This document shows positions 4,701 to 7,700 of a stretch of 19,272 bases of DNA, piece after piece; within the stretch, counting starts at the first letter, position 1, and the number at the start of each line of letters is the position of its first letter. The stretch is from a virus (Duplodnaviria; Heunggongvirae; Uroviricota; Caudoviricetes). The stretch is taken from the IMG/VR virus record IMGVR_UViG_2541047431_000016; one strand, written 5' to 3'. The position numbers were made by a program.

Positions 4701-7700
4701 GCAGGTTCATATTTACCCCCCGTCCCCGTAAATCCCCCGGTCGCGAAATGGAAGTTCGCCGCCGCAGCCTGAATGGCCGTCCCCGTGGAGGCAGACGCAC
4801 CACCACCGAAAGCACCGCCAATGGCGCTGCCGATACGCCCGACAATGCCCACCATGGCCTGTTTAAGCAGGATTTCTGTCATCATGGACAGCACCGAACG
4901 GGTGAATCCCCGCCAGTCTGCCTCTGCACCGGTCAGCATCGCCGCCATATTCTGTGCAATACCGTCAAAGGTCTGCGTGGCAGCACTTTTAACCTGCGAA
5001 AAACTGTCCGTCGCACTTTCCGCCCACTCGCCCCAGCCGGACTTCAGCCCGGCCATCCAGCTTCCACGAAGCTGCTCCTCCGCAGACCTGGTGTTCTTCA
5101 GTGCCGATGTGGCCTTCGCCAGCGCAGCCGGATTATCACCGTACACGTCCCGAAGACGCTGCGCTTCAGACTCCCGCTGCGCCTGACGGTCAGTGAGACC
5201 GCGGGCTTTTGCGCTGATGGCGGCCTGCTTCGCGCTCTGCTGCTCTTCAAACCGCACCGCCTGCTGTGCCAGCTCATTCAGGCGTTTCTGGTATTCAACC
5301 TTGTCGCCCAGCTCAGCCAGCTGGCGTTTGTACTCCAGCGTCTCGTCTTTATGCGCCAGCAGGGATTTTTCCTGCTCAGATAACTGCCGTTTCGTGGCAG
5401 CCTCTTTCAGGACCGCATACTGATTTTCCGCTTTCCATAAATCGCGACGCTGCTGGCTGATTTTCTCATTCGCACCGCTGTGTTTTTCCAGCGTCCTGAG
5501 CTCGGTTTCAAGCGCCAGCAGGGCAGCATGCGCCTGGTCTTCCTGACGCTCACCGGCTGACACTTTGACTCCTGACGACTTCGGCTTTTTCAGCGTCGAT
5601 TCATAATCCTTTTTCGCCGCCGCCATCAGCGTGTTGTAATCCGCCCGCAGGATTTTCCCGTCTTTCAGGGCCTTATTCAGTTCTTCCTGACGGGCGGTAT
5701 ATTTCTCCAGCGGCGTCAGCAGACGCTCATACGCCTTCTGCGCCTCTCCGGTATACTTCAGCTGTGATGCGTCCCGTTCGGCCCGGTCCCTGGCGGCCAG
5801 TTCACCGGCTTTTTCCATATCCGACTGCAGCGTGGCCGCTGCCAGCCCCAGACGGGCATTTTCCCGGTCATTCCATGCGCCCTGAAGGTTGGCCCGGAAA
5901 GAGGCGGTTTTTCCCCGGCGCTGGCTCCGGCTCTGGTACCACTGCCATTTTTTATCCGCCTCATCAAATGCCTTCTGTGCACTGGCGAGCATATCCGCTG
6001 AGGACTCAGGACGACCGATATCCAGAATGGCATCCCACATCGATTTGAATGCCTTCCCGGTTTTATCCGCCCAGGTCTCCAGTGTCCCCATGTTTTCTTT
6101 CAGGCGACGGGTCTGCTCATCAAAGCCTTTCGTGGCGATATCGTTCGCCGCCTGTAAGGCCCCGGCCTCATCACCGGAACGCTGCAGCTGCGCAACATAC
6201 GCAATCTGCTCTGCCGTCACGTTACGGAACTGGCGCACCATCGCAATCAGCCCCGACGTAGGGTCGGTGGTCAGTTTTCCGAAAGCCTCTGCAACCTTGT
6301 CCACCTCCACACCGGATGCAGAAGCAAAACGCGCGACACTCTGGTTGATGGCATCAAACTGTTCACCACCACGCACACCGGCATTCACCAGGGCTGCCAG
6401 TGACTCTCTCGCCTGGTTAAACGTCAGCCCTGCTGCCTGCCCGGCTCTTGAGAGCGTCAGCATGCGATCGGCAGTCAGTCCGGACTGATTACCGGAAAGA
6501 ACCAGGGTTTTATTAAACGCTGAAAGCGTGGAATCTCCCTGGTACCAGGCGTACACCAGCGCACCTGTCGCCACCGCCAGCGAGGTGACCCCGACCATCG
6601 GCAGGGTGATCGCACCGGCAAGCCCCCTGAACATGGGGATCATCCCGCCGAAGGAGTCCTTCACCTGACCGCCCTGTTGCAGCAGGATCAGCCAGGGATT
6701 CTGACCACCGGCAAGCTGCGTGGCGATATCCGTAAACTGTGCGGGCAGGGTTCGCATGGCCGCTTTATACTGCCCGACGGAAATCCCGGCTTTTTGTGCA
6801 GCCAGCGCCTGGCGGCTCAGGCCCTGTTCAACAGCACTGGCGGTTTTTCTGACGTCGGTATCCAGACCTGAAAAATGACGCCTTACCCGGCTCATCTGCT
6901 CATCGAAACGGACAGCATCCAGACTCAGGTCAATAACAAGATCACCAACCGGCTGGGACATATCTCACACCTCCCGGAATCCCCGCTGAAGCCATCATTA
7001 ATGCGGCATCATCCACCATGACATCCGCCACATCCGCAGACGATAAAATATCGCGCCCTCCGTCCCCACCGAACCGGACGCCTCCGGCAAGTCCTGCCGC
7101 TTTCTGCATCAGCATTTTGTCCTCATCCGGCCTCTCCACCTGCTCTTCCTCATGCCGGGGGACAAGCAGACTGAAATCAGAGGGATGCATATCCGGATCG
7201 CAAAAAAACAGGCTGAGTACGGCGTACATCAGCCCGGAAAAATGAGCGTCCAGTTGGGTATCCTGAAAATAATGCGTGCAGTAAAAACGTCGCCAGTCGG
7301 CATATTCGGTGGATGTCATCCCGGCAAGCATGGCGCGCCAGTCGGGTCTCCCCATCTCTCGCGCCAGTTTCAGGACAAAGTTCAGCTCGCCTTCGAATGC
7401 TTTTTTTGATGTTACCGACTCAGTCGCTTCTGTTTTCCCGGTTGGTTCAGGATCGGCATCGTGCCGGTTATCCAGCATACCTGAAAGATAAAGCACCCGG
7501 TTCGTTGCCTGATTCAGTGCATCAGCAGGCCATCCCAGCATCACTTCACGGCGGATCTGCTGCATCTCTGTCTCCGGAGAGGCCAGAGTGCCTTTGAGGG
7601 AATGGGAATGCCATAGCGACATCGCCACAAGCAGGGATGCCGTTTCCAGATATCGCTGGTTAATGTGCACGACATCATGCTTCGTTGTCTCCTGTTGTTC

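What the first reader, a model, noticed from the sequence alone, without database searches (positions are those of the whole stretch)
7400..7480. Tail assembly genes G and T fused into one frame; the frameshift signal is retained out of phase
G-like N-terminus and T-like C-terminus are one continuous 287-codon ORF. Yet the +1 frame contains the canonical slippery heptamer G GGA AAA (7433..7439) followed by exactly 6 codons and TAA (7412..7414), the lambda G-end geometry. That frame is closed just upstream (TGA at 7514..7516). This is best explained by a 1-nt insertion between about 7440 and 7475 that converted the programmed -1 frameshift into a constitutive fusion, abolishing free G.
Basis: partly seen in the sequence, partly recalled or inferred. 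Interest (0 to 1): 0.55.

Follow-up and report, generated by a model that had tools for sequence, protein, structure and literature searches.

The report
Extra A fuses prophage G-T genes
The two lambda-type tail-assembly chaperone genes G and T do read as one gene here, but only because the real ribosome-slipping site, a run of A's, has seven A's where nearly every relative has six, which is most likely a sequencing error or trivial decay in an already dead prophage.

Summary
The 287-codon ORF (6942..7805, minus strand) is real. It carries a lambda gpG domain followed by a gpT domain.

- **True signal.** Alignment with lambda and with close E. coli prophages puts the true -1 slippery heptamer at A AAA AAG, the positional homologue of lambda's G GGA AAG. 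In relatives it is followed by five codons and the conserved G stop (TGA, window 7382..7384).
- **The lesion.** The window has A7 (7401..7407) where relatives have A6. Removing one A restores a 140-aa G identical in length and ending to 55 of 55 relatives.
- **The ORF's product.** The ORF equals the normal trans-frame GT product: 97.9% identical and gapless against a relative's conceptual GT.
GGGAAAA at 7433..7439 is a decoy. Relatives with intact G read it in-frame as GGG AAA, 9 of 67 have GGTAAAG there, and the motif occurs 13 times in the window.
- **Rarity of A7.** It is found in 1 of 646 E. coli records (annotated "frameshifted"). It is absent from IMG/VR and metagenomes, where A6 has 62 and 14 hits.
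- **Record quality.** The window also carries seven other unique indel events, with zero substitutions, across about 10.7 kb otherwise identical to O157:H7 prophages.
- **Prophage state.** The prophage lacks capsid and head-tail genes.

Verdict: artefact or trivial decay. Low interest.

The parts
6942..7805 (-). Single 287-codon ORF that encodes the G-T fusion. It is collinear with the normal trans-frame gpGT product.
   Evidence: ORF list and translation. Pfam PF06894 at aa 1-116 and PF06223 at aa 164-242. Gapless 97.9% identity to the conceptual -1 GT product of L001, and 56% to lambda gpGT.
7401..7407 (-). A7 homopolymer. This is the true slippery site carrying one extra A. Relatives have A6 within TC[A AAA AAG]CAT.
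   Evidence: Alignments A1 and A2. 66 of 67 held relatives have A6. 645 of 646 E. coli records lack A7.
7382..7384 (-). Conserved G stop codon (TGA), now out of frame. It is homologous to lambda G's TGA.
   Evidence: Deleting one A restores a 140-aa G that ends here. The alignment with lambda shows ...TCG AMG GYG AGC TGA conserved.
7433..7439 (-). It is read GGG AAA (Gly-Lys) in the G frame both here and in relatives.
   Evidence: It sits at phase 0 in the ORF. Among relatives it varies: GGGAAAG 44, GGGAAAA 14, GGTAAAG 9. GGGAAAR occurs 13 times in the window.
7412..7414 (-). TAA in the +1 frame. It is not the G stop in any relative.
   Evidence: All 55 relatives with a recoverable start have a 140-aa G ending at the downstream TGA.
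7458..7805 (-). gpG (tail assembly chaperone) domain
   Evidence: Pfam PF06894, E = 9e-34.
7080..7316 (-). gpT domain
   Evidence: Pfam PF06223, E = 5.5e-12.
4382..6961 (-). Tape measure gene H, immediately downstream. It gives the synteny context.
   Evidence: 100% aa identity to the L006 tape measure protein, 859 aa.
7822..8560 (-). Major tail gene V, immediately upstream. It is split into two frames at about 8126.
   Evidence: tblastn gives two HSPs in different frames. The cause is a complex 7-for-6-nt change.

Best explanation
This is the ordinary lambda-type G/GT tail-assembly-chaperone locus of a lambdoid E. coli prophage. In relatives, G (140 aa) ends five codons after the slippery heptamer A AAA AAG. 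A minority of ribosomes slip -1 there and continue into T to make GT. In this window the A-run of that heptamer is one A longer (A7 at 7401..7407). Standard translation therefore reads straight from G into T and produces only the GT protein. The extra A is most likely a base-calling or assembly indel in this record rather than a biological allele. Shown: the position of the lesion, the identity of the true signal, and the rarity of A7. Inferred: that the extra A is an artefact, and that a GT-only locus would not support tail assembly.
For: - **Position of the signal.** The A-run aligns with lambda's and O157's G GGA AAG, with the same five codons plus TGA after it.
- **Restoration test.** Deleting one A restores a 140-aa G ending TSKKHSKAS*, as in 55 of 55 relatives.
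- **Product identity.** The ORF is a gapless match to the conceptual GT product of a relative.
- **Rarity of A7.** It occurs in 1 of 646 E. coli records, where PGAP calls it 'frameshifted'. It has 0 hits in IMG/VR, GTDB species representatives and metagenomes. A6 has 62 hits in IMG/VR and 14 in metagenomes.
- **Uniqueness of the protein.** The exact fused protein is absent from a collection of about 15 billion proteins.
- **Released phage.** The mitomycin-induced phage ASU11 carries A6 and a 140-aa G.
- **Error signature.** Window 8142-15929 and 16399-19272 show 0 substitutions but 7 indel events against L006 and L007. These break YlcI, PerC, the holin and IS1203. None of 290 genomes with the same holin-IS1203 junction shares the four indels within the tested stretch 18380-18880.
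- **V lesion.** It is unique among about 1,600 genomes.
Against: - No reads are available, so artefact and genuine mutation cannot be separated directly.
- The G-T patch itself is only 98.5% identical to its nearest relative. The 'zero substitutions, many indels' argument is therefore borrowed from flanking DNA.
- Homopolymer runs are also real mutational hot spots.
- The prophage is already defective, so a genuine lesion would not be selected against.
- One other genome (PNUSAE008406) shows the same A7.
Confidence: 0.65

Rival explanations
1. The lesion is the same (A6 to A7 inside the true slippery heptamer) but genuine. It would be a recent replication-slippage mutation in a prophage already decaying, leaving a GT-only, G-less and non-functional chaperone locus.
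For: - The prophage lineage is truly defective. It has only a capsid gene remnant abutting V, no FI/FII/Z/U genes, and a large terminase frameshift shared with L006.
- A-runs are hot spots for slippage.
- An independent A7 occurs in PNUSAE008406 in a different T context.
Against: - The window carries seven other unique indel events with no accompanying substitutions in about 10.7 kb. No natural process is expected to give that ratio.
- A7 is absent from every other collection searched.
- The exact protein is not on record.
Confidence: 0.28
2. One reading: GGGAAAA at 7433..7439 is the ancestral slippery site, the G stop is TAA at 7412..7414, and a 1-nt insertion lies in 7440..7475.
For: The heptamer, the six codons and the TAA are present as described.
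Against: - Relatives are identical to the window throughout 7445..7560 with no indel there. The only gap in the region is in the A-run.
- In relatives the G frame reads GGG AAA through this site and ends at the downstream TGA.
- The heptamer is not conserved: GGTAAAG in 9 of 67.
- The geometry is common by chance, in 5 of 13 GGGAAAR sites.
- The repaired G would be 130 aa and would match no relative.
Confidence: 0.01
3. A7 is genuine and tolerated or used. GT would be made constitutively, while free G would be supplied in trans by sibling lambdoid prophages, or by low-level +1/-2 ribosomal slippage or transcriptional slippage on the A7 run.
For: - Genomes that carry this G-T junction type hold a median of 2 and up to 5 copies, so G in trans is conceivable.
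- A-runs support polymerase and ribosome slippage in general (PMC5009743).
Against: - There is no conservation of A7 at all: 1 of 646 records, annotated as frameshifted.
- The prophage lacks capsid and head-tail genes and has a broken V gene, so there is no tail to build.
- The literature says the G:GT ratio must be high.
Confidence: 0.04

Closest known systems
Bacteriophage lambda G / G-T programmed -1 ribosomal frameshift (tail assembly chaperones gpG and gpGT; Levin, Hendrix and Casjens 1993; Xu, Hendrix and Duda 2004, 2013, as cited in PMC5009743)
   Same: - It has the same gene order, V - G - T - H.
- It has the same Pfam domains.
- It is 56% identical to lambda gpGT over the full length.
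- The slippery site is at the homologous column.
- The same five-codon tail and TGA follow the site.
   Different: - The heptamer is A AAA AAG rather than G GGA AAG. This is an allele shared by hundreds of E. coli prophages.
- In this window the run carries one extra A, so no frameshift is needed and no free G can be made.
A6-type G-T junction of E. coli O157/STEC lambdoid prophages and phages (for example WP_000479045 gpG, VT1-Sakai, phage ASU11)
   Same: The G-T segment is 94-98.5% identical at the nucleotide level. The sequence around the junction is identical.
   Different: Those have A6, a 140-aa G and T in the -1 frame. The window has A7.
E. coli PNUSAE008406 gpG pseudogene (NZ_CP104647.1, N5921_RS23205, 'frameshifted')
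   Same: It has the same A7 run at the same site.
   Different: It has a different T allele, which is truncated, and a frameshifted tape measure gene. It is an independent occurrence that NCBI's PGAP pipeline already treats as a lesion.
E. coli dnaX A AAA AAG -1 frameshift site
   Same: It uses the same heptamer, decoded by the single tRNA-Lys (PMC5009743).
   Different: dnaX uses an upstream Shine-Dalgarno-like element and a downstream stem-loop to reach about 50% frameshifting. No stimulators were sought or are needed for the low-level G-T shift.

Membership tests
Lambda-type G/GT tail assembly chaperone pair with programmed -1 frameshift | It is located between the major tail protein gene (V) and the tape measure gene (H). 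| tested here: met
   V lies at 7822..8560 and H at 4382..6961 on the same strand.
Lambda-type G/GT tail assembly chaperone pair with programmed -1 frameshift | The gpG domain (PF06894) is followed by the gpT domain (PF06223). | tested here: met
   (E = 9e-34 and 5.5e-12). 56% identity to lambda gpGT.
Lambda-type G/GT tail assembly chaperone pair with programmed -1 frameshift | An X XXY YYZ heptamer sits in the G frame a few codons before the G stop. | tested here: not met
   In the window the ORF frame reads A AAA AAA G with no 0-frame stop after it. The feature is met in 55 of 55 relatives with A6: A AAA AAG plus 5 codons plus TGA.
Lambda-type G/GT tail assembly chaperone pair with programmed -1 frameshift | T is open in the -1 frame relative to G. 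| tested here: not met
   In the window T is in the same frame as G. In relatives it is in the -1 frame.
Lambda-type G/GT tail assembly chaperone pair with programmed -1 frameshift | Two products, G and GT, are made at a ratio of about 30:1. | not testable with these tools
   This needs protein analysis. The ratio requirement is taken from PMC5009743 and PMC3296357.
   Relatives read it as GGG AAA (phase XXX YYY Z). Their G ends at the TGA 28 nt (30 nt in window coordinates) beyond the TAA. The heptamer is variable.

The most novel reading that the evidence does not exclude
The A7 allele is genuine. The slippery A-run would then act as a mutational toggle between G + GT (A6) and GT-only (A7). 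Free G would come in trans from sibling lambdoid prophages in the same cell, or from low-level transcriptional or +1/-2 ribosomal slippage on the A7 run. The programmed-frameshift heptamer would double as a contingency locus for tail production.
Probability: 0.04. Interest if true: 0.4.

Novelty: already known. Interest (0 to 1): 0.08.

Why it matters
It matters little biologically. The locus is the textbook G-T programmed frameshift with a one-base homopolymer lesion in a prophage that cannot make particles anyway.

It has two practical lessons.

- In this widespread E. coli prophage G allele the slippery heptamer is A AAA AAG, not the lambda GGGAAAG. A nearby in-frame GGGAAAR can mislead motif-based annotation.
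- Slippery homopolymer sites are exactly where sequencing indels create false "gene fusions". A fused G-T call should prompt a check of read support before any biological interpretation.

Tried and rejected
Deleting a base in 7440..7475 yields a 130-aa G that matches no relative. Rejected.
- **Exact-protein look-ups.** I looked up the fused ORF to find the source assembly or other carriers. It is not on record.
- **Homologue search with the fused protein.** It returned only 16 odd, mostly singleton partial proteins and none of full length. I treat this as uninformative, not as proof of absence.
- **GTDB species representatives.** There were no hits for either A6 or A7, so that collection gives no denominator.
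- **Whole-window search of the phage collection.** The best hit was 94% identical, so the source record is not there.
- **The 4-nt difference at 7245..7248.** I suspected another window-specific anomaly, but O157 PV15-279 shares it, so it is a natural polymorphism.
- **Search for genomes sharing the V lesion.** The aim was to find the window's closest lineage and read its A-run. None shares it.
- **Not done.** I did not look for RNA stimulators downstream of the site, because lambda-type G-T shifting is described as stimulator-independent (PMC5009743).

Full report
**What is in the sequence.** All genes of interest lie on the minus strand.

- One ORF runs from ATG 7805 to the stop at 6942..6944, 287 codons.
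- Its N-terminus matches Pfam Phage_TAC_2, the lambda gpG chaperone (aa 1-116, E = 9e-34). Its C-terminal half matches Phage_tail_T (aa 164-242, E = 5.5e-12).
- It sits between the major tail gene V (7822..8560) and the tape measure gene H (4382..6961), the canonical lambda order.
These are GGGAAAA at 7439..7433, then six codons and TAA at 7414..7412 in the +1 frame, and an upstream TGA at 7516..7514 closing that frame.

**Where the real frameshift signal is.**

- The 951-bp G-T segment has hundreds of close relatives in complete E. coli genomes and in Stx phages. The best hits cover the 951 query bases in 950 subject bases.
- In alignments with four such relatives (98.5-94% identity) the only gap is in the A-run. 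The window has CATC-AAAAAAA-GCAT and the relatives have CATC-AAAAAA-GCAT.
- In the relatives NCBI's PGAP pipeline and phage authors annotate G as 423 nt, 140 aa. It translates to ...TGKAEATEPVTSKKHSKAS*.
- So in these relatives the frame from the ATG reads straight through GGG AAA. It then meets TC[A AAA AAG] CAT TCG AAG GCG AGC TGA.
- Lambda itself and an O157:H7 prophage with the alternative G allele have C[G GGA AAG] TGT/TCT TCG ACG GYG AGC TGA at the same alignment columns.
- The A AAA AAG heptamer is therefore the positional homologue of lambda's slippery site, with the same five-codon tail and the same stop.
- A_AAA_AAG is the most shift-prone -1 heptamer known in E. coli (PMC5009743).

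**What the extra A does.**

- Deleting one A from 7401..7407 restores a 140-aa G ending TSKKHSKAS* at TGA 7382..7384.
- Among held relatives with A6 and a recoverable start, 55 of 55 have exactly this 140-aa G.
- I built the conceptual -1 product of the nearest relative by slipping at A AAA AAG. It is 287 aa and aligns to the window ORF without a gap at 97.9% identity. Lambda gpGT (279 aa) aligns at 56% over the full length.
- The window ORF is therefore the ordinary GT trans-frame protein, hard-wired by a +1 change in the slippery homopolymer.

- In the G frame of intact relatives it is read GGG AAA (phase XXX YYY Z), not X XXY YYZ.
- It varies among relatives: GGGAAAG 44, GGGAAAA 14, GGTAAAG 9.
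- GGGAAAR occurs 13 times in this window against 6.8 expected.
- Five of those 13 sites are followed by a stop within ten codons in the X_XXY_YYZ frame.

**How common A7 is.**

- A 57-nt query with A7 that is otherwise invariant among relatives finds 646 E. coli records (1,445 places). Only one record matches perfectly.
- That record is PNUSAE008406. There gpG is annotated "frameshifted", and the neighbouring T and tape measure genes are also broken.
- The exact A7 context has 0 hits in IMG/VR, GTDB species representatives and metagenomes.
- The A6 version has 62 hits in IMG/VR and 14 in metagenomes.
- The exact fused protein is absent from a collection of about 15 billion proteins and from the gene-position index.
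- A phage recovered by mitomycin C induction, ASU11, carries A6 with a 140-aa G.

**Artefact or mutation?** The window is a lambdoid prophage of the E. coli O157:H7 type. It is 99.35% identical to NZ_CP038416 over 7732..19272.

- Within that alignment, stretches 8142-15929 and 16399-19272 (about 10.7 kb) contain no substitution at all. They do contain seven indel events, at 15534, 15549-50, 15754, 18405, 18793, 18825 and 18857.
- These events break YlcI, PerC, the holin and the IS1203 transposase. The protein sequence on either side stays 98-100% identical.
- None of 290 genomes with the same holin-IS1203 junction shares the four indels within the tested stretch 18380-18880.
- V is broken by a 7-for-6-nt change at 8126..8132 that is unique among about 1,600 genomes.
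- Seven indel events against zero substitutions is the signature of base-calling or assembly error, not of natural divergence. In natural divergence substitutions greatly outnumber indels (established knowledge).
- A 6-7-nt homopolymer is the most error-prone context. I therefore put about 65% on artefact and about 28% on a genuine recent slippage mutation.

Either way there is no selection to oppose the change, because the prophage lineage is truly defective. A capsid gene remnant (about 8545..8808) abuts V with no FI/FII/Z/U genes. The large terminase gene carries a frameshift shared with its relatives.

[quoted passage not shown] A GT-only locus should therefore not support tail assembly unless G came in trans from a sibling prophage. 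Genomes with this junction type carry a median of 2 and up to 5 copies. I give a tolerated or used A7 state about 4%.

**Comparison with known systems and verdict.**

- The locus belongs by homology and synteny to the lambda G/GT family. As written, it fails the two defining recoding features: a slippery heptamer before a 0-frame stop, and T in the -1 frame. The cause is the extra A, and all relatives meet both features.
- Nothing here is new. The programmed frameshift is a textbook case, the A AAA AAG allele is widespread, and PGAP already flags the same A7 state elsewhere as a frameshifted pseudogene.
Its interpretation has the right kind of event (a 1-nt insertion giving a constitutive fusion) but the wrong signal and the wrong place.
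- Interest is low.

Noticed in passing
window 8126..8132 (minus-strand gene V, 7822..8560): V is split into two frames. A complex change replaces 6 nt with 7: GGG-ACGTCCG-TTCC here against GGG-CAAACC-TTCC in relatives. No match among about 1,600 E. coli genomes carrying this V segment.
   Followed up: yes
window 15534, 15549-15550, 15754, 18405, 18793, 18825, 18857: Seven indel events relative to O157:H7 prophages lie in DNA that is otherwise identical, with 0 substitutions over about 10.7 kb. They disrupt YlcI, PerC, the class II holin and IS1203. Two of them are the same GACT to GCT dropout, which looks like a systematic base-calling error.
   Followed up: yes
window 18825 and 18857 (+ strand, start of IS1203/IS629 orfA): A -1 indel directly after the transposase ATG and a +1 indel 32 nt later compensate each other. 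Eleven codons are out of frame and the frame is then restored. I could not tell whether this is coincidence or a sign of how the sequence was edited.
   Followed up: partly
window 19104..19220 (+): Rfam ALIL pseudoknot (RF01497, 121.5 bits). It is the stimulator of the IS1203/IS3-family programmed -1 frameshift, and a genuine recoding signal in the window unrelated to G-T.
   Followed up: partly
window ~8545..8808 (-) abutting V at 8560: Only a remnant of the major capsid gene is present, and it runs directly into V. The capsid C-terminus and the FI/FII/Z/U head-tail genes are missing. The O157:H7 relative L006 has the same structure, so the prophage lineage is defective.
   Followed up: partly
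window 12524..14510 (-): The large terminase subunit is split into two ORFs (12524..14218 and 14169..14510). This sequence is identical to L006, where PGAP annotates the gene as 'frameshifted', so this frameshift is inherited and not specific to the window.
   Followed up: partly
window 7398..7731: This is a mosaic patch. The G gene is a different allele from the one in the otherwise nearest prophage L006 (51% aa identity, 140 aa against 143 aa, A AAA AAG against G GGA AAG). The similarity breakpoint falls right at the slippery site, which suggests recombination at the conserved G-end / T-start sequence.
   Followed up: partly
L005 (NZ_CP104647.1 4659544..4659967): E. coli PNUSAE008406 has an independent A7 at the same slippery run, in a prophage whose T gene is truncated and whose tape measure gene is frameshifted. 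It is the only one of 646 records with A7.
   Followed up: partly
window 15930..16398: A short, highly divergent patch (about 40 substitutions and several indels against L006) lies between PerC and the Rz lysis gene, flanked by identical sequence. It is probably a recombination mosaic.
   Followed up: no
window 7202..7208: A T7 run on the minus strand lies inside the T coding part (ORF nt 598-604). It is another homopolymer where an indel would break the fusion ORF. It is intact here.
   Followed up: no
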